Shown: positions 709 through 33,230, numbered from the whole stretch's first letter. The stretch: DNA of 62,592 nucleotides, filler included, from Stramenopiles sp. TOSAG23-3 (GCA_900128585.1; 5 parts of 5 records of this genome joined end to end with filler, not necessarily neighbours in it); one strand, 5' to 3'. The notes: generated from the letters alone by a model not told the origin. Made by a program: numbers and translations.

Positions 709-1596
709 ATGGCAGTCAGAAACAGTGAGAGTAGTCGGGTGGTGGTCTCGGACAGTTCGGAGGAGAACCACCGGGCGTGGGATTATGGGTTGCATAATAT
801 GTGTTTGATACAGGCCGTGCGAACGGGGGCAATGGAAGATTGCGTAGCAGCGTTGGAAGAGAACGCGATTCTTGAATGGTTGACGCCAGGGTATTATAAA
901 ATTTTGGGAGAAACGGATGATAGTGATTTGGACGAAACCGAGGCAGAGCATCAGCAGAGGACGCTGATGCTTTCGGAAGGGTTCCCAGGGTACGAGCGAG
1001 ACTACATGGCCTCGAACGGGAACACCGCGCTGCACATTGCCGCGCGCCAAGGGAACAAGAGAATGATGAGCCTCTTGCTGAAACATAAGTGGGGTGTAAA
1101 TGTGAAGAATGGTAGGAACCAAAGCCCCATGGAACTGGCCGAGCTTGTGTTTCAGGACGAGAGTGCGGACTACCTACGGGCGCACTTGCGCCGAAAGCGC
1201 CTCTCTCGGTGTTTATTCAAGGTGGCCGTGCAGCTTCGACGTGGGTTGAACAGGGTCCGTGCGAAGCGTGCGGCAGCTGCTGCACAAAAGGACACGGCGT
1301 TGAAACGAAAGCGGGTCAACACGTCGACCAAACGTGGGAAGCAACAAAAGCGAGCAAAGTATGTCAATATCAAGAGCGAGGTGTGCACCAGCGGTCGTAG
1401 GAAATCGCTGCGGTTGAAAACGCCTCCGAGCGAGTACTCGAAACTTCGCAACCCAACAAAAAACAAGAAAAGAAACAACTGTCAACCACAGGCAACGTCG
1501 AAAAATCAGAGGATGAAGGCCAACAGTGAAAATATAACTCCCGTAGACACAGAAGGACGAAGGCGCAGCTCGAGGCTGAAGGCTTTAAATTTTTAA
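709..1596 (+). CDS. Ankyrin-repeat protein with a basic, NLS-rich C-terminal tail
   Basis: ATG-initiated 295-aa ORF in a GC-rich island. Ankyrin consensus NGNTALHIAARQGNKRMMSLLLKHKWGVNVKNGRNQSPMELA; K/R-rich tail (KRKR, RRKSLRLK, RRRSSRLK). Confidence 0.8.
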   Translation: MAVRNSESSRVVVSDSSEENHRAWDYGLHNMCLIQAVRTGAMEDCVAALEENAILEWLTPGYYKILGETDDSDLDETEAEHQQRTLMLSEGFPGYERDYMASNGNTALHIAARQGNKRMMSLLLKHKWGVNVKNGRNQSPMELAELVFQDESADYLRAHLRRKRLSRCLFKVAVQLRRGLNRVRAKRAAAAAQKDTALKRKRVNTSTKRGKQQKRAKYVNIKSEVCTSGRRKSLRLKTPPSEYSKLRNPTKNKKRNNCQPQATSKNQRMKANSENITPVDTEGRRRSSRLKALNF

Positions 1597-1876
1597 AAAA
1601 GGTTTTTAGCTGTTACCCTTCGAGAGCACCACCAAAAATATTGTCGAATTTTCTCCTCTCCAAAAGCACAGTATTGCACTTCTTTACGTGGGGGGGAGGG
1701 TGCGCGCGCTGTATAGACAAATTACCAATATAATCATACATAAACAGATTTTAATAAGAAAAGTAACAAGATATATGAATTTGTTTTTTAATAAGAATAG
1801 CTGTTCAATTTTTATAGTTTTTTCACATTTTTGTTTTTTCATGCGTCGTGTATTTCGTCTCTTCTTCTCTGAAAGC

Positions 1877-4624
1877 TTACACCTTCTTCAACGCGCCCTT
1901 GTCGATGGTTTGCAGGGCGGGGCGCATGATGTCCTGAAGGCGCTTTACCCACTCGGCACGTTCGGCCTTGCCTTCTCTCAATGCTTTCCTCAGATTCTTT
2001 AAATCTTTCTTTTTAAACACACGAAACCATTTCCGAAGGACGTCCATTGCGTCGACAAGTTCCACCAAGTCCTTCGTTTCCCAAGCATCGGTCGTGTCTT
2101 TCACGCTGGCCAGGAGTGCCTGGTCTCTTCGGTAGATCTCGGCGTCCCACGGTCCGGTAGGGGCGTGGTACCCGGACCGAATTGTATCGTCCTGCGAGGC
2201 TGGCAGCCCGTCTTTGTCGTCTGTCTTCTTCGTAATCTCACACTCTCCACAATCTTTCAAATACATAAGGTCAATTTGGAACGGCTTGCATGGAACCTGG
2301 GGCTTTCCAATGTCAGCGTTGACAATATTGTGTAGCTCACATACCCAGGTTGACAGCGCCTGCCTAGATTCTACTCGGGGCGGGCCAAGCGAAGGCTCGC
2401 GCAACTGCTGCTGCAAGTGCTTTCGGCAAAGTTTACAAGGGTACAGTTGCCCAAACGCCGCAATCAGATTGGTCATGGCGATCTTGTCGTCTTCGCCAGG
2501 GTGCTCCGGGTACTTTGCCGCAAAGCTGTGGAGGACAAACCAGGCCCGGCGACCAATGAATTCGCGCCAAGACCCCCCTTTGCTTCCGTAATCCTCGTAG
2601 AACTTTTTCTCCCGCACTTTCTTGTTCCCGTCTTTGCCTATTTCCACGATGCTCTCTCGGTCGAAGAGGCCCATCTCGCTGCCATGAGCATGGACGAACC
2701 TGTCCGTTAGATCCTCGTTTGGCTCCACGCTTATTGGACCTCCCGGGTGGTTGGGAATAAAATCCGTCAAGTCAAACGTTCGACCGTTCACCGTGACAAT
2801 CTTTCGGTCTTCTTGTCCGCCCGCCTTGGCCTGCCCCGGGAGTGCGCCGGTTCCCTCGCCCTCAAAAATCACGTGGGCGACCCCTTTCGCTGAGAACGAC
2901 CCCGTCCCTGTTGTACGCGCTGACAACGACTCTACCGACGACCTTGCCGCCGCCAACCCAAAAACGACACAATCCAGCAGCGAGCTGCCCCCCAAGCGAT
3001 TGATACCATGAACCCCTCCCATAATCTCCCCGGACGCGTACAGCCCCCTGATGGGCGCGTCGGTTTTTGCGTTCAGCACACGGGCTTCCGGGTCGACGCC
3101 AAGCCCCCCCATTGTGTAGTGAAGCACCGGCTCGATAACGCCAACATGGTACTCACCCAGTAACGGAAGCTTTGTGTGCGTGCGCCGGAACGGCGAGTAC
3201 GAATTGTTCAACGTAGTATTCAAGAATGTGTCCCGCACCGCCCTACGAAGAGGGGGGGATCCGCCGCTGTGAAGGCGGTCCATGATAAACTGAGTGATGC
3301 CTTCGTACCCATTCACGGGGTGAAGGAGGCCTTTGCCCGTGTAAATGTTTATGTGTGCTTCAATCTTTGGGGCGGCATGAGGGGGGACGGCAATTATAAA
3401 CTTGTCTCCTGGCCGCGACCGCATTGCTTCTACCACCGTTTTTCGCGTCTCCAGCTCATCAATGAAGCGGTGACCATCACGGTCGAGGATGACACCCCCC
3501 GCGCCCCTCACAATCTCTGCACACAATACGAGCGAACGGTCCTTTCCCTCATCGGCAAAACCCTTTGGCGCGTCACTAAACCCAGTAGGGTGGACTTGGA
3601 CCAAGTCCAAATCGACAATTTTCGCACCCAGCGACCTCCCTAACTTAACGCCGTCCCCAGTTGCAAATTTACCGTTAGTGGAGGACAAAGTTTGTAAGTG
3701 GGGAGAAACTTCATTTAGCAGCGACCCCGGCCCCTTGTCGTTTGCATAACCGCCAGTCGCAAGAATGACTCCGGGGGTTTTCACAAGAACGGTTTCGCCG
3801 GTACGTTCACGCTGCAACGTAAGCCCCCAGCCTCCCGTAGCGCTCTTGTCGCACACGGTTTCACCATTTGCCAGAGTCTCACAAAGACCGTCCTCCCCAG
3901 AGGCACCGTCAACTACCCTACCGTTGTTGTCCAATCGCTGCAATTTAATCAAACGGGACCCTTTCAAGACCACCAGCCCGCCGTCCCCCTCGTACTTCAT
4001 CACCGCCTTTTCCAATCCTGATATGAAGGCGGCACCTGCTAGTCCTGCCGTAGGCCTGTGCGTGCGCGCGAAACTATGCCCCCCTAACTGCCCCACCTCG
4101 TCCAAAGGAACATTGGAACGACTCGCAATCCATTCGACTGCTTCTTTCGAACCGTCAACCATTCGTCGAACCAGTTTCGACGTGAACGTACCGTCCTGTC
4201 GTTGAGAACTCTTTATGGTATCGTCATAAAAGCGATCCGGCGAATCTTCGATTTCAAGCGTTCCCTGCCTTTCAGTTTTGCAGCCATTGATACCGGATGA
4301 AGCATAAGCCGAATTTCCGCCCATAAACTGCCGTTTCTCGATTAAAATGACTTTGTGCCCTTCTTCCAGCAGGCGAAGCGATGCGGTCAAACCAGATAGC
4401 CCACCCCCGACGACAGCGATAGCGTTTGTAATTGGGCTTTTCGACGCCTTCGATGCTTCGTTCACTTTGTGCGTTTCAATTTGTTCCTGTACATCTTTCA
4501 ATTGGTTCAAAAGGTCCACGTGCAAGGCAGAGAGTTCCTCCAACGACGAGGCAGCACTATGGACAGTGGTAGCCAGAAAGAGGAGAAGGGCGACGCAAAA
4601 TAACCACCTGGCCGCCGCTCGCAT
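1877..4624 (-). CDS. Secretory-pathway fusion: FAD-dependent soluble fumarate reductase (Osm1/flavocytochrome c type) + cytochrome b5 + Erv/ALR sulfhydryl oxidase
   Basis: Signal peptide MRAAARWLFCVALLLFLATTVHSA. FAD motif VVGGGLSG..EK...GGNSAYASSGING. Fumarate reductase motifs QVHPTG, EIVRGAGG, DELETR, LHYTMGG, GGVHGINRLGGSSLLDCVVFG. b5 motif VNGRTFDLTDFIPNHPGG...FVHAHG. Erv motifs GRRAWFVLH, YPCKLC, WVCELHNIVN..GKP..PC, plus a C-terminal CGEC. Confidence 0.92.
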   Translation of the reverse strand: MRAAARWLFCVALLLFLATTVHSAASSLEELSALHVDLLNQLKDVQEQIETHKVNEASKASKSPITNAIAVVGGGLSGLTASLRLLEEGHKVILIEKRQFMGGNSAYASSGINGCKTERQGTLEIEDSPDRFYDDTIKSSQRQDGTFTSKLVRRMVDGSKEAVEWIASRSNVPLDEVGQLGGHSFARTHRPTAGLAGAAFISGLEKAVMKYEGDGGLVVLKGSRLIKLQRLDNNGRVVDGASGEDGLCETLANGETVCDKSATGGWGLTLQRERTGETVLVKTPGVILATGGYANDKGPGSLLNEVSPHLQTLSSTNGKFATGDGVKLGRSLGAKIVDLDLVQVHPTGFSDAPKGFADEGKDRSLVLCAEIVRGAGGVILDRDGHRFIDELETRKTVVEAMRSRPGDKFIIAVPPHAAPKIEAHINIYTGKGLLHPVNGYEGITQFIMDRLHSGGSPPLRRAVRDTFLNTTLNNSYSPFRRTHTKLPLLGEYHVGVIEPVLHYTMGGLGVDPEARVLNAKTDAPIRGLYASGEIMGGVHGINRLGGSSLLDCVVFGLAAARSSVESLSARTTGTGSFSAKGVAHVIFEGEGTGALPGQAKAGGQEDRKIVTVNGRTFDLTDFIPNHPGGPISVEPNEDLTDRFVHAHGSEMGLFDRESIVEIGKDGNKKVREKKFYEDYGSKGGSWREFIGRRAWFVLHSFAAKYPEHPGEDDKIAMTNLIAAFGQLYPCKLCRKHLQQQLREPSLGPPRVESRQALSTWVCELHNIVNADIGKPQVPCKPFQIDLMYLKDCGECEITKKTDDKDGLPASQDDTIRSGYHAPTGPWDAEIYRRDQALLASVKDTTDAWETKDLVELVDAMDVLRKWFRVFKKKDLKNLRKALREGKAERAEWVKRLQDIMRPALQTIDKGALKKV

Positions 4625-5133
4625 TTTACAAAATTAAGTCAATACCAAGATTGAAAAACCAATGCCTGCAATAAATTGTTTGAAAGAAGGTGGTTGGAAT
4701 TTCTTTGACCTGAACTTCCGTTTTCGATTAATATATGCATTTGAAAAAAATTCGCAGCCCCCCCCGTCCTTTTCCCCACACCCTATTTTTCTCGCTTTTT
4801 TTTCTCTATTCTTCTTCTTTTTCTTTGTTGTTGTTATTACTTATTATTATTATTCAATTCGATAATAACATTTCTATAGTTTACATATTCGATGACTATG
4901 TTTATTGATAGATTTAATATATAATTATCATATATCTTTTATTGTATATGACGTTTTAGTTAGAACACGTGGCAAAAAAAATAATAATAATAAGTTTTTG
5001 AATGAGAAACTACCATCAAGGAAAGTTGTAGTAAGTTGTGTGTTTATATATATTATAGAAAACGATTGACAGATTATTTGATCTGTTTATTTCTTTCCCT
5101 TGTCTTTTTTTTTCAACGCATGCATATGTGTCA

Positions 5134-8100
5134 TCATAGTGCATTCTTTAACATGGCACGCAATTCTTTGGCCGAGACCCTTGGTCGGCTTAGTTCGAAC
5201 TTGGCACTGGTACCACCTTTCGGTTCATCGGCATTGTCTCGTGCCCTGGCTGGGCTGAAATTGCCATACCCCGCTCGTTGCGGCGAGTAATCTGCGGGGG
5301 TCACCGCGATACCCCAGTCGTGGTCGTGTATGATGTTGTCATGCCTGTCATAGTCGTGTTCGAATCCGTCGTACGCATCGTCGTATGCCGACGAGTCGTC
5401 ATAGTACTCATCGTACTCATCCGTGGCTTCATCCGCCCATTGGTCTCGCACGTAATTAACACGTTTCGTTCTGCTGCTGGCTGTCGGGCGGCGCTTTCGC
5501 GTTGGGGGTTTCCTTAGGTCCACGTATTCGTCTTCGGAAGGGTCGTCGGATGCCGTGGATTCGTCGTCGAACACAAAGCCATCAGCAGACGAGGATTCGT
5601 ACCGCACCTCTTCTTCTTCCTGCACATATTCGTCGGTAAACCGTTCCGCCGCCAATGCTTTCGCAACCGCTGGCGCAGACCGTGGGCGTTTTCCTTTCGC
5701 CGGGGACGGGGCCACGGGCTCGATCTCCATTGGCTGATCTTGAAGTTCGCTGCCATCGCTGCTTCCTTCCTCCAGCTCCTCTTCTGAGGACACGATCGCT
5801 GTATCCGCTTCTCCAAGAGATGCCATTGAAAATGGGTTCAACGCCAGCGCGGCTTGCTTCTCAAACGACCCATCGCCTTCTTCGACAACCACTCCAGCGG
5901 CGCCAAGTTCTGCATCTACGCCCACCTCTTCGTCCAGAAGCTGCTCGTCCTCATCGTCGCCCTCCATGTCTTCGTCCCCTGCAAGAAAAGAGTCCAAGAA
6001 GGCCTGTTCGGGGGGCGCGGGGACAACGGCAACAGAAGATTCAAACACGCCCTGAATAACTGGTCGGTCCGCAAATGCCGGCGCGGTGCCAGCGCCCCGA
6101 ACGAATTCTTCGAGGCTCTGTAGTTCCGCGAAGGCTTTCTCGTGGTCTTCCCACAGCCCCTTGAAATGCGCCGCTGGGTACACCGTCGTATTGGTTTCTT
6201 GCTTGCTGTCCACAAGCGTCTCGAACGGGTTCAAGACGTTTTCTTTCGGTACGGGGCCTCTTGCGTTGTATGCCTTAACTGCAGACTGCACTGCCGGGTG
6301 CCAATCATTTTCGCACATGTCGACAAAGTGACCGGCGTCAAAACCGTGTCGGTTCTTCAGGCAGCAAAGAATGTTGATGGCTGTTAAACGGCATTCCCAA
6401 TCGTCGTCAAACAGCTTCGGCAACACCGCCTTGGCTTTCTGCAGGAAGGTAGCGACAATGCTGTCGTCGTTGCAGATCAGCTCTGTCGTCTGCCCCAGCA
6501 CCCACAGCGAGACACTCCTCAGATTCTTCCACGGCGTTTTCACCACGCTCGCTACCCTTTCCCAAAGCTCAATTTTGTAACCAGGGTCGATGCCATTTCG
6601 CGAAACGAATTTGTGAACCAAGAACACGCATCGCAACCGAAGGGAGGGCGACCCCGTCCCGTCTTCTTCGCGCGCCCCGCGGCCTTCCTTCAGCGCATCC
6701 AGGAGAAAATCAAGCAAATGCTTGCTCAGGATATTTTTCTTGACTCCAGCATGGTTCGTTCGGAACATGACCGTGCTGAGGACGTCCATTATATGGAATG
6801 CTAAGATTTGCACGTCGCTCCTAGGGTGGTCAAGAAGGGACGTGCAGAACGCCGTGATCCGAGGCAAGCTTTGCCAGAGGCTACCCACGCACTCCCGCAA
6901 TCGCGCGGGACTTGATGGTTGGTCGCGTATAGACAGAAGCAACAGCAGCAAGAAAAAAAGGCGTTGCTCTGTGCGGTCCCCTTGCGCAAGCAGAGACGTC
7001 GATTCAAAGGCTCTGTCCCCACTGCTACCTTGCCGCGAAGTTGGCAACGACGGCATGCTGGTGCAGTACTCTACCACGAAGGCAAAGCACTCGAACATTT
7101 TGATGCCTTGCAAAGCTTCGGGCGCCACCTGCTGCGCAGGGATTTCCTCTCCTGCAACACGCTTTGTAACAAGGTCGGCCAACCGTTCCTTTTCGTACTC
7201 GACGAGGTCGGACACAAGCAAATGCTTTCGGTGTCGCTCCATGCCTTGGGCAACACCGCACGAAAGCACGTCCACAAAGTAGCCGACCGTGTGCAGGTAC
7301 GACTTGCTTCGAACGGTGTACTTGTCCAGCAAAGCGGTCAAGATAACTTTTGTCATCTCCACCGTCAGGCTTTCGGCCGTAAAGTGAATGATCGCCTTGA
7401 GCACATGAAAGGTGTCGTCTTTTACACTGTGTGGTACCCACTTCGCAAAGATTGGGAGAAACATAAGGAAGAACTTCTGCATCGTGGTGGCCTCGTCGAA
7501 GCTCAGGTCTTGGTCCATGTTCGCGAATTGCTTCGGGGTTGGGTCGAGAGAGTCTGGGACCCGGCCGAGGGTCTCATTTATGTTGATGATGTCGGGCGTC
7601 AGCAGGGTCCTCAGCACCCCCAGCAGTGCGGTGGAGGGGGCGCGGAATTTGCTTTGCAAGTACGCCCATTTCAGAAGCGGCAACGCCAGCAGGTTTAGCG
7701 ACGGCGCCAACTCGTCCGGGATGGCCCTGGCGACGCTTACCAGGCAGCCCCAAAGCGTCTGGAACGCTACCAAGCCGGTGGTGCTGTTCCCGCGCGCATC
7801 ATGGGGCGGCACAGTGATGAGGTCTTGGGAAAAACAATGCTTCTGTATCCGTTTTACCAACAATGGGATTAGTTTCAGCAGAGAGTCTCGCAATTGGGGC
7901 ACCTGCGCTCGGACGACCGACGGGGACAGCGTGGCCACGGCAGTGGCAAGGGTATCGGTGGAGTGGGCGACGAAGAGCACGGCATCTTGCATTCGTTTCG
8001 TCAGGTTACTCGTCCCACGCCGGGCCGACCGTGGTCGGATCCGGTTGACGTTCATAAACTCGTCTGCGCACCAACTGAGAATTGCGCCGGCTTCCTCTGG

Positions 8101-10785
8101 GCAACGGCGTACACCGTAACCAATGTTGCTGGCAATGGCTTCCCAGCACCTTCGAGAGGACCGGTGGACCACAGCCACTTCGTGGCGGGACAAACGCAGC
8201 AACGCCACCACCAGGCCCCGTCGCAACGGCATGTCCCCTCGCAAGCGGCCTATGATAAGCACCAAGACCCGAAGCAATATTATCGAAAGGCGCGTCGATG
8301 CCGAGTTTCCAAGGGTCGCGCCTGACATTTGCTTAAGGTAAGGCTCGATAACGGTAGTGACCGTGTCGGCAAGAAGATGCCTGGAAAAGTACGGCAGCAT
8401 CCCGTAGCAAGTTTCAAGAAGGAGGACCGCGCGCTCCTCTGGAAGATGCCTTTGGAGATCTTGCGGCTGCTGCAGGTCAACGTCCACGGGGTAAACTTGC
8501 ACCAGGCGTTGGAGAATCAACGGGAACAGTTTCCCAATGGAGCAACCGATGTGGTCCAGGACAAACTGCAAGCCGCGCGCGCCCGCCTCCCGCACCGGCA
8601 GCATCGGGTCTTTCAGGCTGGACAGAAGAATATGGGTCAAGTGGGGCTGCAGAGACTGCAGCCCTGTTTTCACATCCGTGGAGGGGTGGATGGATGCCCT
8701 CGCGCCGCTCCCGTAGCATAGTGCCGCGGCGGCACCCATCAATTCGGCCATGTTGGAGTCGCCGTCGTTGTCGAGCTTGGTGGCAAGCAGGGTGTACTCT
8801 GTCGCCCTATGCAACGCGACAAGCTTTACGTACAGCTGGTTAACGTGCGACAGGCCGTCCGCGGCTAGCAAACTGAACGTCGCAGCGCGCAAGGCTTTCT
8901 TCTGAAACGGAACGTTTGCAGCGTGCTCGTGGAACAAGTTTTGTTCCGCGCGGCGAAAGACTTCGGTGGCCTGCACGACCCGGCGAGTGCGCAGGAGGGC
9001 CAGCCCGCAGAGCATGTCCGCCTCGACCGACTCGCTCACGCGATGGCGTGTTCGGAGGGCCGTCGACACGTTCATCAGGGGCACGACCGCGGCAGGCGGG
9101 GGGGCGTGCTGCAGAGAGAACCCAACGATGGATACTGTCAAATCCTTTTGTTTGCCAATGAGCTGGGGGTCTACGCCGTCGTCCTCCTCCTCGTCGTCGA
9201 GGCCATCGATTATCCCATCGTCGTCGTCCAGTATGAGCCCGTCCTCTTCGTACGCACCATCCGAATCCTCCAAGTCATCGGAATCTTCGTCTTCGCCCAA
9301 AAACCGCTCGTCGTCGTCGTCGTCAGCTAGATCGTTCGCAGGCAACAATCGGTCTGACGGAAGCCCCCGCTGCTTTGCCCGCCCAGGAGACTGCGACGCG
9401 ACCTTCTTGCCCGAGGCTTTCCGGTGGCCCCGCGCCGGCGACGGTGTGCCGCCGCCGCCCCTGCCCAACGCCCCTGCCACGATGCCGTCGGCCGACAACA
9501 TTGGGGCATCGGCGTCGCCAAGGACTGGCCGTTCTTGGGGCGAAGTGGGCAGGCCCGTGGCCCCCGACAGGGGGTCATTGAGGCCTGTGTCCCCCTCTTG
9601 CCCTCCATTTGCCCCGCTCGCCGCCCGTTTGGTGGCACTACTACCGTCCTCAGCGGGCGCGACGGCCCCGTCCGTGTCTTGCTTGAACAGGTGAACGACG
9701 ATCTGCTCTGCCATCCCGGGCGTAAAAACTTTGATGAGCCCGTCCTCGGGCACTAGCTGAGTGGACGGCACCGCAATTTCTTGGGTGGACTTGTTCATAC
9801 CACCCGTGCGAAATTCGACGCTGCGCAGGTTCACTGGCACTGCGGAGTAAATGTTCAACGATTCGATCAGGCACTTCCCAGGGAGCCGCACAGAAATACG
9901 AACGATGCTCCCTTCCTCCCCGTCTCCCAAGTCGACATGTTGCTCTTGGACTTTGAGCATTTCCCCGTACTGCCCTTCGTTTGCTGCCGCCGTGCACACG
10001 TTAAACGCGACCAGGGGCTCCAGTTCCCTCCACATCCCGTCCCGCATCAGCTCCGGGTTGAACAGGTGGCGCCGCCCCCCGCTCCGACGGGAAACCCCAC
10101 TGTCGATCACGTCGTCGACTGGGTTGACCATCTCGCGAGGGTAAGCAACCCGTCGATGTCGGTGGGCACTGGGCGACGACATCGCCGCGACGGTCTTCCC
10201 ATTACTCGCACCGCCTCCCCCCTGGTACGCCCTAGGCCCTCGCTCCCCACTGCGAATGCTCCGACGGGCCACCTTTTCGGAAAGGGCATGGTTGGCCCGG
10301 TGAAGCGTTGCGGACGCGGTCCGTTTGGTCGGCGCAGCCCGGTGCCCGGTGCTGCCCGCCCTTTGGGAAGCCCCTGCGGCCGCCGCGCTATTCTGGGGCC
10401 GGTTTCGGCCGCTTCCCGTGTGGCTACTGCTCGCGGGACGCGTCCGAGATGAATGGTTCGCCCGCCCGCCAGAGAGCCGGCTTCGCCGCTGCTGTTGCTG
10501 GTGCAGCTGTTGTTGCTGCTGCTGTGAGTAATAGTCTTGCTGTTGCTGCATACGGGAGGCCATGTTGCTGACGCTATTGTTCACTAAAGCCACGGACGGC
10601 CCAGACCGTGGCCGCCGCCTTTCTTGGCCAGCCCCGACGGGCGTCGTCCTCTGGATCGTCCTGCGCTGCTGCTGCGCCGACCTAGACGGCGACTCCACGC
10701 GACGAGGGCTTCCCGCCGCAGACGAGGCCACCCTGACAACACCCCCTGAACCGTTCGGGGCGTTACCACCCCCCTTAAGCTCCAT
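5134..10785 (-). CDS. Large (~1880 aa) probable HEAT/ARM alpha-solenoid protein with disordered Q/R-rich N-terminus and acidic tracts
   Basis: Long uninterrupted ORF. First ATG at 10785 (MELKGGG); the upstream extension to 10926 is microsatellite. HEAT-like segments LKDPMLPVREAGARGL, LLDHPRSDVQILAFHIM, LFDDDWECRLTAINIL. No specific family recognised. Confidence 0.7.
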   Translation of the reverse strand: MELKGGGNAPNGSGGVVRVASSAAGSPRRVESPSRSAQQQRRTIQRTTPVGAGQERRRPRSGPSVALVNNSVSNMASRMQQQQDYYSQQQQQQLHQQQQRRSRLSGGRANHSSRTRPASSSHTGSGRNRPQNSAAAAGASQRAGSTGHRAAPTKRTASATLHRANHALSEKVARRSIRSGERGPRAYQGGGGASNGKTVAAMSSPSAHRHRRVAYPREMVNPVDDVIDSGVSRRSGGRRHLFNPELMRDGMWRELEPLVAFNVCTAAANEGQYGEMLKVQEQHVDLGDGEEGSIVRISVRLPGKCLIESLNIYSAVPVNLRSVEFRTGGMNKSTQEIAVPSTQLVPEDGLIKVFTPGMAEQIVVHLFKQDTDGAVAPAEDGSSATKRAASGANGGQEGDTGLNDPLSGATGLPTSPQERPVLGDADAPMLSADGIVAGALGRGGGGTPSPARGHRKASGKKVASQSPGRAKQRGLPSDRLLPANDLADDDDDERFLGEDEDSDDLEDSDGAYEEDGLILDDDDGIIDGLDDEEEDDGVDPQLIGKQKDLTVSIVGFSLQHAPPPAAVVPLMNVSTALRTRHRVSESVEADMLCGLALLRTRRVVQATEVFRRAEQNLFHEHAANVPFQKKALRAATFSLLAADGLSHVNQLYVKLVALHRATEYTLLATKLDNDGDSNMAELMGAAAALCYGSGARASIHPSTDVKTGLQSLQPHLTHILLSSLKDPMLPVREAGARGLQFVLDHIGCSIGKLFPLILQRLVQVYPVDVDLQQPQDLQRHLPEERAVLLLETCYGMLPYFSRHLLADTVTTVIEPYLKQMSGATLGNSASTRLSIILLRVLVLIIGRLRGDMPLRRGLVVALLRLSRHEVAVVHRSSRRCWEAIASNIGYGVRRCPEEAGAILSWCADEFMNVNRIRPRSARRGTSNLTKRMQDAVLFVAHSTDTLATAVATLSPSVVRAQVPQLRDSLLKLIPLLVKRIQKHCFSQDLITVPPHDARGNSTTGLVAFQTLWGCLVSVARAIPDELAPSLNLLALPLLKWAYLQSKFRAPSTALLGVLRTLLTPDIININETLGRVPDSLDPTPKQFANMDQDLSFDEATTMQKFFLMFLPIFAKWVPHSVKDDTFHVLKAIIHFTAESLTVEMTKVILTALLDKYTVRSKSYLHTVGYFVDVLSCGVAQGMERHRKHLLVSDLVEYEKERLADLVTKRVAGEEIPAQQVAPEALQGIKMFECFAFVVEYCTSMPSLPTSRQGSSGDRAFESTSLLAQGDRTEQRLFFLLLLLLSIRDQPSSPARLRECVGSLWQSLPRITAFCTSLLDHPRSDVQILAFHIMDVLSTVMFRTNHAGVKKNILSKHLLDFLLDALKEGRGAREEDGTGSPSLRLRCVFLVHKFVSRNGIDPGYKIELWERVASVVKTPWKNLRSVSLWVLGQTTELICNDDSIVATFLQKAKAVLPKLFDDDWECRLTAINILCCLKNRHGFDAGHFVDMCENDWHPAVQSAVKAYNARGPVPKENVLNPFETLVDSKQETNTTVYPAAHFKGLWEDHEKAFAELQSLEEFVRGAGTAPAFADRPVIQGVFESSVAVVPAPPEQAFLDSFLAGDEDMEGDDEDEQLLDEEVGVDAELGAAGVVVEEGDGSFEKQAALALNPFSMASLGEADTAIVSSEEELEEGSSDGSELQDQPMEIEPVAPSPAKGKRPRSAPAVAKALAAERFTDEYVQEEEEVRYESSSADGFVFDDESTASDDPSEDEYVDLRKPPTRKRRPTASSRTKRVNYVRDQWADEATDEYDEYYDDSSAYDDAYDGFEHDYDRHDNIIHDHDWGIAVTPADYSPQRAGYGNFSPARARDNADEPKGGTSAKFELSRPRVSAKELRAMLKNAL

Positions 10786-10886
10786 ATTTTTCTTTGCCCG
10801 TCGAACGTACGATTGTTCGTCCACAGACAGAACGCACAAAAACAGAACGCAAGAAGAAACAACAAAAACTGCACACACCCGAACAA

Positions 10887-10972
10887 ACACACACACACAC
10901 ACACACAGGATAATAATATAAATCACCCTAAAACCCTTTACTTTCCCTCTCTCTCTCTCTCTCTCTCTCTCT
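10887..10972. repeat. (AC)n and (CT)n microsatellites upstream of the HEAT gene
   Basis: acacac run at about 10887-10907 and ctctct run at about 10947-10972. Confidence 0.9.
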
Positions 10973-29813: not shown

Positions 29814-32800
29814 CTAAAAAAAAGGAAACATCGGTTCGTCATGAACCATTTCCCATTCCTCCGCGAACACGGTTGGAAGCACCCATTCTCCACTAGAACT
29901 AGGGGACACAACCTCAGCGCGTTCTGGAACTCCTTCAGCTTGGTTTGCGTTAGTATTTGGAGCGTTTGAGCTGCCGCTGCTTGGCGATGCGCCCCCATTG
30001 ACCTTTTCATCAGCATTTGCGTCATTTCCGTCTCGGGCGTGAATGGCCTCAAAACTGGCCCACGCGTTTAGTCCTGCTGTAGAATTGTGCAGGTCGCGAA
30101 CGGTCACAGAATCAACCGGTACGTCAAAGTGAGACGCAAAATTCCGCTTGCTTCGAGCCAAAACCTCTGGGCTTACTGCGATAGCATTTGGAGCTCTTGA
30201 GCTGCCGCTGCCTCTTTGGTGCAGGCTACCCGATGAGTCCAGTCGTGGGCTTGGCAATGCGCCCCCACTACCGCCCTCTTTATCGTCGCTCAGTAGCGTA
30301 ACGGGACGAGCATTTGGATTTCCGTCCAGGGCGCGGGCCCAACCGTTTACTCCTGCTGAAGAATTGTACACGTCACTAACCGTCACAGAAGCGACCGGTC
30401 TGTTTAAGTGCGACGCGAAATTTCGCCTGCTTCGAGCGAACACCTCCGGACTTAGAGTCCATGCCGATATAGGTACTCCTGAACGAAATATTTCCCGGAA
30501 GGTAACTGCCTCAGGGTTTATGATGCCGTCGTTTTCTGCCGCAAAATTTATTTTAGCACGAGCCAGCATCTCCGCCGTCAAACCATGATGTATCGCGTGC
30601 CCTAACAAATTTTGCAGGTCGATGCGGTCCCTGCAATTAATGGCCTCCTCAGGAAAGCCACGTTGTACCAATTCCTGGATCATTTGGACAAGCGTCATCT
30701 CTCTGTGCTCGGGGAATACACGCGCCCTTCTGCGTCGGCCTGGCCGCGGCCTATCCCGTGGATGGCGTTGGTAATTGGCTAGCAAGCGGCGTTCCTCTCT
30801 TTCACGGTGAAATTCCCCTCTTCTACGGTAACGTTCCTCTCTATTACGGTTGTGCACTTCCCTCTCTGCTCTTTCCCGGCCGGCCTCTCTCTCCGCTCTT
30901 TCCCGTTCGGCCAATTTACTCCTCAACAATGTTTCGTTGATTACCAAGTCGTCGTGCGTGAGTCTGCTTGCTGTGGGAGCGTCTGGGCCCTCTGCGGTCT
31001 TCTGCTCAAACATCGTGCGTTGTAGGCGGTGGGTTGCCTCCAGCCTGTCCGCCAAATCACGAAGTCGCCCAAACCCTTCGACAAATTTTGGAGAAGGAAG
31101 CCTCAAGAGCTTGTTCAAAGCGGGCAAAATGTCAGCAAGCTTTTCAGCATTTGTTGAGACTTTCGTGCATGGCTTCCCAGCAAAGTATCTGAACACCAAC
31201 ATCCACATTGCAGTGTCTAGGGAACTTATCAAGCTCTCTTGAATTTGCTGAAGAGCACTTGCGTACAAAGGCACCCCGTCTTTGATTTCTCTGCATTTGT
31301 TCTGGACATTGTTCTGCAGCCGCTGAAAACCCTGAAATTCTGCAAGGGTCCGGTCATACACTGGAACATGGACCAGGCTGGTCATGTCGTTGAAAATGTC
31401 ACCAAATGGATGTTCTACAGCTGCTGCTGCTCGCTGCTGGGCTGCCTGAAGCTGCGAACGATGGAGGGCCAACATGTGCCTGCGTTGGTCTACATTAGTG
31501 CAATGGGAATCGCATTGCCCGGCTTGTCTTCCGTAGTCTTTGAGACAAACCCAGCAGTATTGGTGGCCGCAGGGCTTTTTGCATGTCATGTGGTTGCACC
31601 CCCTATACTTGTGTGTAGGCTTTTTACACTTTGGGCACGGTTTCGCGCCTTCGCCGTATTGATCAGAATCCAAAAAGTTGGAAGTTGCAGCCTCCGCATG
31701 GACCGCTAATCCCAAAAGCCTGGCTTCCACTTGCCTCTGCTCCCTTTCTATATCTTCTAGGCGCCGTTGTAAAATCCCTCTATGCTCTTCTGCGTGGCTT
31801 CGGCATGTCGCCATAATTCTTTCCGAGAGTTTGGACAAGTTATCTTTGATCAAGTCGGACTTATGTTTACCCTCTCGTCCCCATGCTTCAACCATTTTGC
31901 AACTGACGGGAGCATGGCACTTTTTCCTGCAGCCCCAACAGAACGTTGTGCGGCACTTGCAAACGATTTTTCTCGTTTTGCTCCTTTCATCTGGGTAAAA
32001 AACGACCAGGTTGCAGCGTGGGTTTGGGCACCGCTTGCACTGCCTTCCCCCGTCAACAATTGACCGTTTTAAGAACTTCTTGTACTCGAGCTGGACCTGT
32101 TCGTCGCAGACGCCATTGATCAGATTTTCATTGATCAGCTCTTCACAATCTTGTGATATGCATTCTGTGTGGATAAATTCTGGCCCGTTCTCGGCTAACT
32201 TTGACACAATGTACTTGTTCCAGCAAGTCTTGCAGAAGGAATGTTTACACTTCAATGAATACGTCGCGCTGCCGTCGCCACATCGTCCGCCGGAAGGCGA
32301 AGCAGTCCCGGTGGATGGTGGTGTGGACTCCAGCTTTAGAGAACCAGCGGTGGCGTTGCTGTGGGGTCCGCGAAGGATTTTTTGTTTCAGCATGTCTGAG
32401 AATGCATCCTTACTCTCACGGTACTTCGCCGCGGAGACACTGTTTACAGCATGTTCCCAATTTGGATTTCTTACAAGGTCCATCAATGCACGGCCCACGC
32501 CAATTAATCCAGTTTGCGGGTTCCAATTTTCCACAATGCCCAAACAAACGTTGCCGGATTCTGTGCATATGTTTGGGTGTTGAAGGCTTGTGTCCCCAAC
32601 AATTCTTCGGGGGCTTGTGTACGGGAAATTTTCATCCAACGATACAACAAACGAGCAATGGTGCTTCTCCCAAAGGCTATCGATTGGGCCAATGAACGCC
32701 AGCCGTAGCTCGGTCATCCTGTCCTCTACAGGAACTACTTCAAACAGCCCTGCCCGACGAATCCGTCGTATCTCGTCATGGAGTGACATCCCTAAGGACC

Positions 32801-33230
32801 CCCTCTTTTGTCTTTTTGCCCTTTTCTGGTCTTCCTTTCGCGACTTTTCTTTGCCGCGGTTCCTCTTCTGGTTTACACCTCCGCAGCAGCAAAGTTCGCA
32901 CTTTTTCGTGGTTGACTCGTGAAACCCATTAGCGTTACAAACGCTGTCGCCCTCGGTAATGAAGTTCTTTAACGTCAAACGTCGTGAATCCCAGCTGTTC
33001 CGCAACAGCTCCGTTTGCGCAACTCCCCGATTGACGGTGAAAATTTCTACCACCTCGGAGACTTTTTCTTCCCGAATACGATCCATTTCTTCCGTGTTGT
33101 TGATCTGGTACGAGACGTGGCGTCTTACTTTACCAGGGTAGCCCCCAATTAGTTCTTCGTCGCCTGGATCCGAGTAGTAGTTGTACTCGTCGTCCGAACC
33201 AGACGCATCCGCCAGAACTAGTGAAGCCAT
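29814..33230 (-). CDS. Ariadne-like RBR E3 ubiquitin ligase with a UBC (E2) domain inserted in RING1 and C-terminal repeats
   Basis: Acidic N-terminus and UBA-like segment (LLRNSWD). RING1 split as CELC...[UBC: GPIDSLWE, FPYTSP, HPNICTESGNVCL, WNP]...CKHSFCKTCW...CISQDC. IBR CPNPRC..CKC..FCWGC...HAPVSC. RING2 CPKC...GCNHMTC..CGHQYCWVC. ATG at 33230 (MASLVL). Confidence 0.9.
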   Translation of the reverse strand: MASLVLADASGSDDEYNYYSDPGDEELIGGYPGKVRRHVSYQINNTEEMDRIREEKVSEVVEIFTVNRGVAQTELLRNSWDSRRLTLKNFITEGDSVCNANGFHESTTKKCELCCCGGVNQKRNRGKEKSRKEDQKRAKRQKRGSLGMSLHDEIRRIRRAGLFEVVPVEDRMTELRLAFIGPIDSLWEKHHCSFVVSLDENFPYTSPRRIVGDTSLQHPNICTESGNVCLGIVENWNPQTGLIGVGRALMDLVRNPNWEHAVNSVSAAKYRESKDAFSDMLKQKILRGPHSNATAGSLKLESTPPSTGTASPSGGRCGDGSATYSLKCKHSFCKTCWNKYIVSKLAENGPEFIHTECISQDCEELINENLINGVCDEQVQLEYKKFLKRSIVDGGRQCKRCPNPRCNLVVFYPDERSKTRKIVCKCRTTFCWGCRKKCHAPVSCKMVEAWGREGKHKSDLIKDNLSKLSERIMATCRSHAEEHRGILQRRLEDIEREQRQVEARLLGLAVHAEAATSNFLDSDQYGEGAKPCPKCKKPTHKYRGCNHMTCKKPCGHQYCWVCLKDYGRQAGQCDSHCTNVDQRRHMLALHRSQLQAAQQRAAAAVEHPFGDIFNDMTSLVHVPVYDRTLAEFQGFQRLQNNVQNKCREIKDGVPLYASALQQIQESLISSLDTAMWMLVFRYFAGKPCTKVSTNAEKLADILPALNKLLRLPSPKFVEGFGRLRDLADRLEATHRLQRTMFEQKTAEGPDAPTASRLTHDDLVINETLLRSKLAERERAEREAGRERAEREVHNRNREERYRRRGEFHREREERRLLANYQRHPRDRPRPGRRRRARVFPEHREMTLVQMIQELVQRGFPEEAINCRDRIDLQNLLGHAIHHGLTAEMLARAKINFAAENDGIINPEAVTFREIFRSGVPISAWTLSPEVFARSRRNFASHLNRPVASVTVSDVYNSSAGVNGWARALDGNPNARPVTLLSDDKEGGSGGALPSPRLDSSGSLHQRGSGSSRAPNAIAVSPEVLARSKRNFASHFDVPVDSVTVRDLHNSTAGLNAWASFEAIHARDGNDANADEKVNGGASPSSGSSNAPNTNANQAEGVPERAEVVSPSSSGEWVLPTVFAEEWEMVHDEPMFPFF

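What the first reader, a model, noticed from the sequence alone, without database searches (positions are those of the whole stretch)
1877..4624. Single-chain fumarate reductase-cytochrome b5-Erv/ALR fusion: candidate oxygen-independent disulfide-forming machine
Seen: one 915-aa ORF with a signal peptide and three redox modules. The fumarate reductase keeps the residues matching the flavocytochrome c3 catalytic set (H in QVHPT, E/R in EIVRG, R in ELETR, H in HYTMGG, R in HGINRL). The cytochrome b5 has both candidate heme ligands (HPGG H626 at 2747-2749; H645 or H647). The Erv domain has the redox CKLC (C730/C733, 2426-2437), CX16C and the HN.VN FAD motif. Established: yeast Osm1 fumarate reductase accepts electrons from Erv1 and supports Ero1-dependent folding anaerobically, as separate proteins; fumarate reductase-b5 fusions also exist. 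Inference: the chain hard-wires substrate dithiol -> Erv FAD -> b5 heme -> FRD FAD -> fumarate in the secretory pathway, making disulfides without O2 and without H2O2. I know of no description of this three-domain architecture but cannot search to confirm.
Basis: partly seen in the sequence, partly recalled or inferred. Interest (0 to 1): 0.92.

Follow-up and report, generated by a model that had tools for sequence, protein, structure and literature searches.

The report
Fumarate reductase–cytochrome b5–Erv fusion protein
A marine protist makes one secreted-pathway protein that joins a disulfide-forming enzyme to a heme domain and a fumarate reductase, which probably lets it form protein disulfide bonds by passing the electrons to fumarate instead of oxygen.

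Summary
Window 1877-4624 (-) is one intronless 915-aa ORF. It holds a signal-peptide-like N-terminus, an Osm1-like soluble fumarate reductase (FRD), a cytochrome b5 domain and an Erv1/ALR-type sulfhydryl oxidase. All six Osm1/Fcc3 catalytic residues, both heme histidines (H626, H647; not H645), the Erv CXXC, the CX16C and HNxVN are invariant in 17 full-length relatives (45-60% identity).

Secretory Trx-Trx-Erv proteins share both.

It is not a chimera. Contigs from polyA, oligo-dT and other marine RNA libraries of three studies bridge both junctions without joints, and a Triparma transcriptome holds a complete homologue.

The strongest new support is a second, independent fusion, ERO1-FRD-b5. 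It has signal peptides and an intact CxxCxxC, and its FRD forms a separate clade. Two different disulfide-generating flavoenzymes were therefore each fused to the FRD-b5 cassette.

Best reading (about 0.6): a thiol:fumarate oxidoreductase, dithiol -> CGEC -> CKLC -> Erv FAD -> b5 heme -> FRD FAD -> fumarate. Cofactor binding, ER residence, fumarate dependence and cofactor distances are untested. Eight full-text searches found no description of it.

The parts
1877..4624 (-). Whole CDS, 915 aa plus stop (stop at 1877-1879); intronless
   Evidence: An in-frame stop lies 4 codons upstream of the ATG. No joints appear in 3 RNA runs and 1 DNA run.
1799..4670 (-). Approximate extent of RNA-library contigs (transcript with short UTRs)
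   Evidence: RNA contigs end at 1799-1834 and at 4636-4670. All three RNA runs have zero depth over 4748-5100, where DNA run X6 continues. Contigs cannot show true transcript ends, so this is a weak hint.
4556..4624 (-). Signal-peptide-like N-terminus, aa 1-23 (MRAAAR + hydrophobic core + VHS|A)
   Evidence: Sequence. The top hydropathy windows all fall in aa 1-28. No signal-peptide predictor was run, so the cleavage site is inferred.
4433..4555 (-). N-terminal helix, aa 24-64, with nearly invariant L49/L53/L57; role unknown (possible coiled coil)
   Evidence: conservation. (helix 2-60, pLDDT 39-66).
2909..4432 (-). Soluble fumarate reductase domain (Osm1/Fcc3 type), aa 65-572. Catalytic H345, E370, R373, R394, H502, R543. 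Variable insert at aa ~238-275.
   Evidence: Pfam 2.8e-59. Osm1 5glg 7.8e-73. Foldseek hit Osm1 6ku6_B, E 3.8e-36, TM(target) 0.89. The six residues are invariant in 17/17.
2819..2908 (-). Linker 1, aa 573-602; low complexity and variable length
   Evidence: pLDDT <50 over aa 572-605. Length 35-64 aa across 17 members. A strain variant G591R lies here.
2609..2818 (-). Cytochrome b5 domain, aa 603-672; axial ligands H626 (HPGG) and H647
   Evidence: Pfam 23.2 bits against a 23.7 cut-off for this protein. 15 of 17 family members match Cyt-b5 at E<=0.001, best 6.1e-9. The best PDB match is the flavocytochrome b2 heme domain 3ks0, 3.5e-5, with NHPGG and the second His aligned. H626 and H647 are invariant.
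2570..2608 (-). Linker 2, aa 673-685
   Evidence: pLDDT <50 over aa 674-692.
2255..2569 (-). Erv1/ALR-type sulfhydryl oxidase core, aa 686-790. Redox C730-K-L-C733, structural C762/C779, H765-N-x-V-N769.
   Evidence: Pfam 3.3e-24. Yeast Erv1 4e0h 9e-20, ALR, AtErv1 2hj3 2.9e-18, Erv2 6e-12. Residues invariant in 17/17.
2240..2251 (-). C792-G-E-C795, an invariant second CXXC just after the Erv core; candidate shuttle disulfide
   Evidence: C792, G793 and C795 are invariant in 17/17. Also present as CGEC in the Trx-Erv relative P0169 and as CAEC in P0174. The function is inferred.
1880..2239 (-). Conserved C-terminal tail, aa 796-915 (GPWD, Y831, TDAWE, then helices); unknown role
   Evidence: G824, W826 and Y831 are invariant. 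The tail is shared with Trx-Trx-Erv proteins. No PDB hit and no Atlas hit. Helices 844-908, pLDDT about 70-76.

Best explanation
The gene encodes a secretory-pathway, single-chain thiol:fumarate oxidoreductase that forms disulfides.

Proposed path (inferred):
1. A reduced client or a PDI-like carrier reduces the exposed C792/C795 disulfide.
2. That pair reduces the C730/C733 disulfide next to the Erv FAD, probably across an Erv homodimer as in other Erv enzymes.
3. The Erv FAD is reoxidised in two one-electron steps by the b5 heme. The b5 domain sits between two flexible linkers and can swing, as the heme domain does in flavocytochrome b2.
4. The heme reduces the FRD FAD.
5. The FRD FAD reduces fumarate to succinate, using the Osm1/Fcc3 catalytic set.

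Net reaction: 2 R-SH + fumarate -> R-S-S-R + succinate, with no O2 consumed and no H2O2 made.

What is shown: the domains, their intact catalytic and ligand residues, their conservation, the single transcript, and the independent recurrence of the same logic with ERO1.

What is inferred: every electron-transfer step, cofactor loading, the compartment (ER or secretory) and the physiological substrate.
For: 1. All three modules are intact.
- Six of six Osm1/Fcc3 catalytic residues are present.
- Both b5 histidines are present, aligned to the flavocytochrome b2 heme domain.
- The Erv CXXC, CX16C and HNxVN are present.
- All of these are invariant in 17 of 17 full-length proteins of only 45-60% identity.

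2. The three modules lie on one transcript.
- X3 record 13 spans 1834-3489, across both junctions.
- X13 (polyA) records 6 and 8 span 1822-2854 and 2825-3647.
- X11 (oligo-dT) record 1 spans 1799-2797.
- No joints were seen, and the RNA runs are silent over 4748-5100 where DNA continues.
- Six 915-aa members of its 90% cluster come from separate contigs, and a complete MMETSP transcript of 878 aa exists in Triparma.

3. An independent fusion of the same logic exists.
- Eight of the 120 listed rows are ERO1-FRD-b5.
- The four I scanned have the order ERO1(N)-FRD-b5(C).
- Eight of 8 keep the Ero1 CxxCxxC motif.
- All 6 whose N-termini I printed (P0028 and P0039 were not) start with a hydrophobic, signal- or anchor-like stretch.
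- Their FRD domains form a clade (99*) separate from the Erv-fusion clade (100*) in a 51-row tree.

4. FRD-b5 is also fused to an acyl-CoA oxidase (P0113) and an acyl-CoA dehydrogenase (P0036). The cassette therefore recurs beside flavoenzymes that need an electron acceptor.

5. There is precedent for each pair.
- Osm1 plus fumarate accepts electrons from Erv1 in reconstitution about as well as cytochrome c (PMC5638582, abstract and passages).
- Osm1 takes electrons from Ero1 anaerobically (PMC6242907, abstract and passages).
- Erv1 has cytochrome c reductase activity, so flavin-to-heme transfer occurs in this family (PMC7155059 and PMC7764442, search-listing abstracts only).

6. The thermodynamics run downhill. 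Erv1 disulfides lie at about -150 to -320 mV and its FAD at -148 or -215 mV (PMC7318334 abstract). Fumarate/succinate near +30 mV and b5 near 0 mV are values I recall, not from any call.

7. The compartment fits.
- The N-terminus is signal-like, and about 13 of 17 relatives have hydrophobic N-termini by eye.
- The nearest outside relatives of the Erv+tail module are Trx-Trx-Erv proteins. The four whose N-termini I printed look signal-like.

8. Osm1's second, free-flavin pocket is changed. Residues W295 and F297 correspond to S364 and V366 here (hand count; pocket residues from the PMC6242907 passage). This fits a different electron input. Only 3 of the 9 pocket residues were checked.

9. A strain variant in X11 carries 3 synonymous changes inside domains. 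Its 3 amino-acid changes fall only in the N-terminal helix and linker 1.
Against: - No step of electron transfer, no cofactor binding and no activity is shown.
- The window protein's own b5 score is just under Pfam's cut-off (23.2 against 23.7 bits), and 2 of 17 relatives miss Cyt-b5 at E<=0.001.
- None of 17 members ends in KDEL or HDEL, so ER residence is unproven. The protein could be secreted or act in a later compartment.
- A fumarate supply in the ER lumen is not established.
- The organism's RNA is found in runs labelled marine, seawater or aquatic metagenome. I would presume such water to be oxygenated, although no run record here gives oxygen, so an 'anaerobic' purpose is not obvious.
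- The AlphaFold2 model is mediocre (pLDDT 69.7, pTM 0.57) with linkers below 50, so it says nothing about domain docking.
- Erv enzymes can use O2 directly, so the Erv FAD may bypass b5.
- Whether the same organism also has a normal ERO1 or QSOX could not be checked, because no genome is held.
Confidence: 0.6

Rival explanations
1. A dual-acceptor oxidase. The Erv domain mainly reduces O2 like other Erv enzymes. The FRD-b5 arm is an overflow or low-oxygen acceptor, or a way to limit H2O2, rather than the obligatory route.
For: Erv1 uses both O2 and cytochrome c (PMC5638582 passages; PMC7155059 listing). The transcripts come from runs labelled marine, seawater or aquatic metagenome. Nothing in the sequence excludes O2 access to the Erv FAD.
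Against: The FRD catalytic residues and the heme ligands are strictly invariant over 45-60% identity, so the arm is under strong selection. The same cassette was recruited independently by ERO1.
Confidence: 0.2
2. The b5 heme is not on the Erv-to-FRD path. Electrons pass flavin to flavin, or through free flavin as proposed for Osm1 with Ero1. The b5 domain instead links FRD or Erv to some other partner.
For: Osm1 works with Erv1 and Ero1 without any heme domain (PMC6242907 and PMC5638582). In ERO1-FRD-b5 the b5 is at the far C-terminus, not between the two flavoenzymes.
Against: The b5 is kept in all the fusion types I scanned, with the FRD-b5 order always preserved, and both His ligands are invariant. 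Osm1's free-flavin pocket residues W295 and F297 are replaced. Long flexible linkers make chain order a weak guide to geometry.
Confidence: 0.1
3. A redox-balancing or metabolic enzyme rather than a folding catalyst. It would oxidise small thiols (glutathione, cysteine) with fumarate to set luminal or extracellular redox, or act on an enoate other than fumarate.
For: No thioredoxin or PDI domain is fused, so the thiol substrate is unknown. The soluble FRD superfamily includes urocanate reductase (6t85, 1.2e-34).
Against: All six fumarate-specific Osm1/Fcc3 residues are present. Osm1 (4.2e-72) is a far better match than urocanate reductase. The Erv+tail module is shared with Trx-Trx-Erv proteins built like protein-disulfide oxidases.
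Confidence: 0.08
4. An assembly or gene-model artefact: three separate genes joined by misassembly or read-through.
For: The window appears to come from small DNA runs of 7-16 million letters, and such data are prone to chimeras.
Against: RNA contigs from three studies bridge the junctions. Six 915-aa copies lie on separate contigs. Sixteen further full-length relatives have the same order, including a complete Triparma transcript and three Triparma genome models.
Confidence: 0.01

Closest known systems
Yeast Erv1 + Osm1 (and Ero1 + Osm1) anaerobic disulfide pathway (PMC5638582; PMC6242907)
   Same: The same two enzyme families and the same proposed net chemistry: a thiol reduces a sulfhydryl-oxidase FAD, which passes electrons to a soluble FRD FAD and on to fumarate. 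The FRD domain is closest to Osm1 in sequence and fold.
   Different: In yeast they are separate proteins with weak binding (Kd about 150-200 uM, PMC6242907 passages) and no heme. Here they form one chain with an inserted b5 heme domain. The Erv has a C-terminal CGEC instead of Erv1's N-terminal shuttle (the Erv1 detail is recalled). The protein has a signal peptide rather than IMS targeting.
ERO1-FRD-b5 fusions (P0046 Hondaea fermentalgiana, P0346 'Stramenopile-MAST_4', P0037 Prasinococcus capsulatus, P0074 MMETSP transcript)
   Same: A disulfide-generating flavoenzyme fused to the FRD-b5 cassette, with a signal- or anchor-like N-terminus and intact active sites.
   Different: The oxidase has a different fold (ERO1) and sits N-terminal of FRD-b5. 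The FRD domains form a separate clade, so the fusion arose independently. I found no paper on these either.
Stand-alone and other fused FRD-b5 proteins (fungal 'fumarate reductase (NADH)', Chromera velia P0031, ACOX and ACAD fusions P0113 and P0036)
   Same: The same FRD-b5 cassette in the same order.
   Different: They have no signal peptide and start at the Rossmann motif. They form a third FRD clade (100*). They have no Erv or ERO1.
Trx-Trx-Erv secretory proteins of protists (P0169-P0175, e.g. Hanusia phi P0174), built like QSOX
   Same: They share the Erv core, the second CXXC, the GxW motif and the helical tail: 35-40% identity over aa ~660-910. The four whose N-termini I printed look signal-like.
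   Different: They carry two thioredoxin domains on the substrate side and no FRD-b5. Solved QSOX structures do not match the window's Erv domain at E<=0.01.
Flavocytochrome b2 and Shewanella flavocytochrome c3
   Same: Both are single-chain flavin-heme enzymes with a heme domain that relays single electrons. The b2 heme domain is the best PDB match of the b5 region. Fcc3 is the bacterial FRD homologue.
   Different: In b2 electrons go from flavin to heme to cytochrome c, with lactate as donor. Fcc3 has four c-type hemes, and the window protein has no CXXCH motif (Cys list). Neither has a thiol oxidase domain.

Membership tests
Soluble fumarate reductase (Osm1 / flavocytochrome c3 flavoprotein) | FAD_binding_2 fold with an N-terminal dinucleotide-binding motif | tested here: met
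   Pfam 2.8e-59 over profile 2-414 of 414. Foldseek hit Osm1, TM(target) 0.89, rmsd 2.7. G73, G75, L76, S77 and G78 are invariant.
Soluble fumarate reductase (Osm1 / flavocytochrome c3 flavoprotein) | Six catalytic and substrate residues (Osm1 H281, E301, R304, R326, H435, R477) | tested here: met
   H345, E370, R373, R394, H502 and R543 align to them (residue list from the PMC6242907 passage). All are invariant in 17/17.
Soluble fumarate reductase (Osm1 / flavocytochrome c3 flavoprotein) | Fumarate-to-succinate activity with bound FAD | not testable with these tools
   Needs purified protein.
Cytochrome b5 (heme-binding type) | Match to the Cyt-b5 profile | tested here: inconclusive
   The window protein scores 23.2 bits against a 23.7 cut-off, covering profile positions 10-58 of 74. 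15 of 17 family members match at E<=0.001, best 6.1e-9. The PDB best hit is the flavocytochrome b2 heme domain, 3.5e-5.
Cytochrome b5 (heme-binding type) | Two axial histidines (the HPGG His and a second His about 20 residues later) | tested here: met
   H626-P-G-G and H647 are invariant in 17/17. Both align to the b2 heme domain's NHPGG and its later His.
Cytochrome b5 (heme-binding type) | Heme actually bound | not testable with these tools
   Needs spectroscopy.
Erv/ALR sulfhydryl oxidases | Erv1_Alr helical FAD-binding core | tested here: met
   Pfam 3.3e-24. Yeast Erv1 9e-20, ALR about 3e-18, AtErv1 2.9e-18.
Erv/ALR sulfhydryl oxidases | FAD-proximal CXXC, structural CX16C and the H-N-x-x-N flavin contacts | tested here: met
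   C730/C733, C762/C779, H765, N766, V768 and N769 are invariant.
Erv/ALR sulfhydryl oxidases | A second, mobile shuttle disulfide outside the core | tested here: inconclusive
   An invariant C792-G-x-C795 lies 13 residues after C779 in a low-confidence, probably flexible segment. Its role as a shuttle is inferred.
Erv/ALR sulfhydryl oxidases | Homodimer | not tested
   Only the b5 partner was scored, so no dimer test was made.
QSOX | Thioredoxin domain(s) fused N-terminal of the Erv domain | tested here: not met
   No thioredoxin family appears in the Pfam scan at E<=0.01. No QSOX chain appears among PDB hits at E<=0.01. Relatives of the Erv+tail module do have two Trx domains.
Flavocytochrome c3 (Shewanella Fcc3) | N-terminal tetraheme c domain with CXXCH motifs | tested here: not met
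   Of the 12 cysteines only C730/C733 and C792/C795 form CXXC, followed by R and E rather than H. The PDB alignments start after the heme domain.

The most novel reading that the evidence does not exclude
The FRD-b5 cassette is a portable 'fumarate terminal' that protists have repeatedly bolted onto flavoenzymes that normally hand electrons to O2 or to an electron carrier: Erv, ERO1, acyl-CoA oxidase and acyl-CoA dehydrogenase. On this reading, widespread marine stramenopiles carry hard-wired, peroxide-free, oxygen-independent versions of oxidative protein folding and perhaps of fatty-acid oxidation. The Erv and ERO1 fusions would then be natural proof that fumarate is a physiological terminal acceptor for eukaryotic disulfide formation in the secretory pathway.
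Probability: 0.4. Interest if true: 0.85.

Novelty: new variant of a known kind. Interest (0 to 1): 0.74.

Why it matters
How eukaryotes make disulfide bonds without oxygen is still open. The only molecular proposal rests on weak, debated contacts between separate yeast proteins (Osm1 with Erv1 or Ero1); the discussion of PMC6242907 calls direct transfer controversial. Listings for PMC3840938 and PMC8065220 show the question is also open in mammals.

Here nature has joined the two partners in one chain, with a heme relay, and has done so twice independently, once with Erv and once with ERO1. This is comparative evidence that the oxidase-to-fumarate link is physiological.

It also gives a single recombinant protein in which the whole path can be measured. 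The readouts would be heme reduction, succinate formed per disulfide and H2O2 suppression. If it works as proposed, it is also a self-contained, peroxide-free disulfide catalyst of practical interest for anaerobic or low-oxygen protein production.

Tried and rejected
1. b5 docking on the Erv dimer (complex prediction). I sent Erv+tail x2, 2 FAD, heme and b5 as the partner. The result was score 0.00, 'no answer'. My alignment was not used and the controls were not run. This is neither support nor evidence against.

2. Cofactor distances. The AlphaFold2 model has unreliable linkers and its coordinates are not exposed to scripts, so no distances were computed.

3. Own genome search for ERO1. No genome is held, so I cannot say whether this organism also has a canonical ERO1, QSOX or a mitochondrial Erv1.

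4. Earlier findings of this scan. Nothing was found by sequence or by words. One search was a formatting error, corrected.

5. ESM Atlas on the tail, aa 796-915. No usable hit.

6. A foraminifer anoxia paper (PMC13561418). Its one passage mentions an expressed soluble FRD, with no link to Erv or Ero1.

7. Stand-alone b5-Erv forms. The short hits that I scanned (P0178, P0181, P0168, P0019, P0020) keep the C-terminal end of the FRD domain and so look like gene fragments. P0179 and P0180 show no FRD remnant and may be fragments or true b5-Erv proteins. This is unresolved.

8. Chimeric assembly. Rejected.

9. Reverse flow, with succinate oxidation driving disulfide reduction. Rejected on thermodynamic grounds, using the potentials in the PMC7318334 abstract and a recalled fumarate/succinate value.

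10. Opposite-strand ORFs inside the gene (2214-2591, 3176-3643, 3765-4205 on +). I did not pursue them. I take them as by-products of a GC-rich coding region (GC 0.556).


Full report
**1. What is there**

Window 1877-4624 on the minus strand is a single 915-aa ORF.
- An in-frame stop lies four codons upstream of the ATG, so there is no hidden N-terminal extension.
- The coding stretch is more GC-rich than its flanks: 0.556 against 0.42-0.48 in 2-kb windows.
- The window looks like a compact eukaryotic nuclear region. Neighbouring ORFs hit ankyrin repeats, a Na/H exchanger, a UBC+IBR protein and a GH20 hexosaminidase.
- No whole genome is held for it.

**2. Domains**

Pfam finds three domains:
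- FAD_binding_2, aa 69-549, 2.8e-59.
- Cyt-b5, aa 604-649, 23.2 bits, just below the 23.7 cut-off.
- Evr1_Alr, aa 693-783, 3.3e-24.

Against solved structures:
- The first domain is closest to yeast Osm1 (5glg, 4.2e-72 for the whole protein, 7.8e-73 for aa 1-565).
- Next come the Shewanella flavocytochromes c3 (e-55 to e-50).
- Urocanate reductase is far weaker (1.2e-34).
- The Erv region is closest to yeast Erv1 (9e-20), ALR and Arabidopsis Erv1 (2.9e-18). Erv2 follows (6e-12), then mimivirus R596. No QSOX chain matches at E<=0.01.
- A Foldseek search with the AlphaFold2 model returns Osm1 first (E 3.8e-36, TM on the target 0.89, rmsd 2.7 A).

The 72-aa b5 region on its own best matches the heme domain of flavocytochrome b2 (3ks0, 3.5e-5). 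NHPGG aligns to NHPGG, and H647 aligns to the second His of that domain.

**3. Residues**

- Counting along the alignment (chain index + 30 = Osm1 numbering), H345, E370, R373, R394, H502 and R543 pair with Osm1 H281, E301, R304, R326, H435 and R477.
- A passage of PMC6242907 calls these six completely conserved with Fcc3 and reports alanine mutants of each.
- The R326A mutant chain 6ku6 has Ala at the column of R394.
- There is no CXXCH motif, so no c-type heme (Cys list).

**4. A conserved family**

The first protein search scored 8000 candidates, found 603 with E<=0.001 and listed 120.
- Seventeen rows are full-length proteins (801-988 aa) with both FAD_binding_2 and Evr1_Alr: one identical to the window and sixteen at 46-60% identity.
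- Five more rows are 508-663 aa with both families. Three of them (P0019, P0020, P0168) proved to be gene fragments when I scanned them.

In the 17-row alignment, the following are invariant although mean column identity is 48%:
- the six FRD residues;
- H626-P-G-G and H647;
- C730/C733 and C762/C779;
- H765, N766, V768 and N769.

H645 is not conserved, so H647 is the second heme ligand. Scanning each member separately, 17 of 17 match FAD_binding_2 and Evr1_Alr, and 15 of 17 match Cyt-b5 at E<=0.001.

Named members are four Triparma species or forms. UniRef automatically calls them 'Sulfhydryl oxidase' and JGI calls others 'flavocytochrome c'. All other members are unnamed marine sequences.

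In the library of 1.84 billion representatives, aa 601-915 finds 4628 proteins at E<=0.001 but only 44 at E<=1e-30. The fused family is therefore small.

**5.

- *A second CXXC.* C792-G-E-C795 lies 13 residues after the Erv core and is invariant. It sits in a segment the model leaves disordered (aa 789-825, pLDDT <50). In Erv enzymes a mobile second disulfide carries electrons from the substrate to the FAD-proximal CXXC. From recall, it is C-terminal in Erv2 and plant Erv1. I take CGEC as that shuttle; this is inference.
- *A conserved tail.* It holds GPWD, Y831, TDAWE and then helices 844-908. It has no PDB or Atlas match.
- *The Erv+CGEC+tail module occurs elsewhere.* The search with aa 600-915 gave 26 proteins at E<=0.001 among 2247 candidates. 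Nineteen are FRD-Erv forms. Seven have two thioredoxin domains followed by this same Erv module. P0169 is 40% identical over aa 666-905 and Hanusia phi P0174 is 35% identical over aa 658-910. The N-termini of the four I printed look signal-like. The module therefore belongs to secretory-pathway thiol oxidases built like QSOX, although its Erv core is of the Erv1/ALR type.
- *An N-terminal helix,* aa 24-64, with conserved leucines.

**6. It is not a chimera, and it appears in RNA libraries**

The stretch is held at half or more of its sampled words by 20 of 24 listed runs from 11 studies. All carry marine, seawater or aquatic labels. Six are RNA libraries, and two rows may be the source sample.

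I laid three RNA runs from three studies and one DNA run on window 1400-5100.
- RNA contig X3-13 covers 1834-3489, across both junctions.
- X13 (polyA) contigs cover 1822-2854 and 2825-3647.
- X11 (oligo-dT) covers 1799-2797, with further pieces up to 4636.
- No joints were reported, so there is no intron.
- All three RNA runs have zero depth over 4748-5100, and X11 and X13 have zero over 1400-1771, while the DNA run covers everything. This serves as the silent-stretch control.
- Contigs cannot give true transcript ends or expression levels.

Six 915-aa members of the window protein's 90% cluster lie on separate contigs, and a Triparma MMETSP transcript encodes a complete 878-aa homologue.

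The X11 strain differs at six bases. Three are synonymous and lie inside domains (L76, D641, I815). Three change residues, and only in the N-terminal helix (E47K, T51M) and linker 1 (G591R).

**7. The comparative argument**

Eight of the 120 rows carry ERO1 together with FRD and b5.
- The four I scanned have the order ERO1(N)-FRD-b5(C), with ERO1 E-values of 1e-82 to 1e-90.
- All eight keep the Ero1 CxxCxxC motif.
- All six whose N-termini I printed (P0028 and P0039 were not) begin with hydrophobic, signal- or anchor-like stretches.
- Named members are Hondaea fermentalgiana, a 'Stramenopile-MAST_4' protein, Prasinococcus capsulatus and an MMETSP transcript.

I built a tree of FRD domains from 51 rows: all 17 Erv forms, all 8 ERO1 forms, the 2 ACOX/ACAD forms and 24 other FRD(-b5) rows. 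I picked those 24 by hand from about 90, so they are not a random sample. It was a quick search with SH-aLRT support only and a midpoint root for drawing. It gives three well-supported groups:
- the Erv fusions (100*), which also hold P0021, a 607-aa row without an Erv domain that I take for a fragment of a P0012-like protein;
- the ERO1 fusions together with four FRD-b5 proteins that have N-terminal extensions (99*);
- the fungal and Chromera-type FRD-b5 proteins, with the acyl-CoA oxidase (P0113) and acyl-CoA dehydrogenase (P0036) fusions among them (100*).

Chain order differs and the FRD clades differ, so Erv and ERO1 were joined to FRD-b5 independently. Two unrelated-looking disulfide-generating flavoenzymes fused to the same cassette is the strongest evidence here that the cassette serves as their electron acceptor.

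**8. Mechanism**

The established facts are these:
- Osm1 plus fumarate accepts electrons from Erv1 in a reconstituted Tim13/Mia40/Erv1 system about as well as cytochrome c (PMC5638582, abstract and passages).
- ER-resident Osm1 can take electrons from Ero1's FAD through free FAD or by direct contact. Affinity is only about 150-200 uM, and the authors call direct transfer controversial (PMC6242907, abstract and passages).
- Erv1 has cytochrome c reductase activity (PMC7155059 and PMC7764442, search-listing abstracts only).
- Erv1 potentials are about -150 to -320 mV for the disulfides and -148 or -215 mV for FAD (PMC7318334 abstract).
- Fumarate/succinate at about +30 mV and b5 near 0 mV are recalled textbook values.

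On this basis I propose: dithiol -> C792/C795 -> C730/C733 -> Erv FAD -> b5 heme -> FRD FAD -> fumarate.

The b5 domain lies between two linkers that are variable in length (35-64 aa and 38-103 aa across the family). The model leaves them disordered (aa 572-605 and 674-692). This fits a swinging heme domain of the flavocytochrome b2 kind.

Osm1's second, free-flavin pocket residues W295 and F297 correspond to S364 and V366 here (hand count; pocket list). Only three of the nine pocket residues were checked. The change fits a different way of feeding the FRD flavin.

**9. Weak points**

- Nothing biochemical is shown.
- None of 17 members ends in K/HDEL. Three end in long acidic runs. ER retention is therefore open, and the enzyme may act later in the secretory pathway or outside the cell.
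- A luminal fumarate supply is unknown.
- The transcripts come from runs labelled marine, seawater or aquatic metagenome. The selective advantage may therefore be avoiding H2O2, or coping with transient low oxygen, rather than strict anaerobiosis. A dual-acceptor model is the main rival.

**10. Novelty**

Eight full-text searches found the two yeast Osm1 papers and general reviews, but no description of an FRD-b5-Erv or an ERO1-FRD-b5 protein. The searches covered about 8.1 million PMC papers and 0.36 million bioRxiv preprints. Subscription-only literature and supplements were not searchable.

The proteins themselves are already in public databases under automatic names. I file this as a new variant of a known kind. 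The parts and the pairwise link are known. The hard-wired three-module chain, its Erv module with the CGEC and tail, and the parallel ERO1 version appear undescribed.

**11. Verdict**

- Confidence in the three-domain identity: about 0.97.
- Confidence in the proposed electron path: about 0.6.
- Interest: 0.74.

Noticed in passing
P0026, P0027, P0028, P0037, P0038, P0039, P0046, P0074 (not in the window): ERO1-FRD-cytochrome b5 fusion proteins of about 1100 aa. They have an intact CxxCxxC, and the six whose N-termini I printed start with signal- or anchor-like stretches. They occur in Hondaea fermentalgiana, a MAST-4 stramenopile, Prasinococcus capsulatus and marine metagenomes. I found no paper on them.
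   Followed up: partly
P0113 and P0036; P0031 (not in the window): FRD-b5 fused to an acyl-CoA oxidase (P0113, ends AKL) and to an acyl-CoA dehydrogenase with two b5 stretches (P0036). The Chromera velia FRD-b5 (P0031) ends ARL. These endings look like peroxisomal PTS1 signals (a recalled rule) and hint at fumarate-linked fatty-acid oxidation.
   Followed up: no
P0169-P0175 (not in the window): A protist family with two thioredoxin domains followed by an Erv1/ALR-type Erv core, a second CXXC and the same helical tail as the window protein (e.g. Hanusia phi). It is built like QSOX, but its Erv module does not match solved QSOX chains at E<=0.01.
   Followed up: partly
P0010, alignment A1 columns about 820-880: One family member has an insert of about 60 aa after the b5 domain. 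It looks like a second, partial b5-like repeat and contains 'HPG'.
   Followed up: no
P0008, P0009, P0011 C-termini: Three family members end in long poly-Asp/Glu runs instead of a retention signal.
   Followed up: no
window 5134-10926 (-): A 1930-aa ORF directly upstream of the gene has no Pfam match at E<=1e-5.
   Followed up: no
window 29814-33386 (-): A 1190-aa ORF combines a ubiquitin-conjugating (UQ_con) domain with IBR domains. It may be an E2 fused to RBR-type E3 parts.
   Followed up: no
window 40981-49368 (-), 50622-54938 (-), 58514-62089 (-): Very long ORFs of 2795, 1438 and 1191 aa were not examined.
   Followed up: no
window 4757-4856: In the intergenic stretch upstream of the gene, the DNA run X6 shows small insertions and deletions and a contig that runs on unlike the window. 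I take this as strain variation, not as part of the gene.
   Followed up: no
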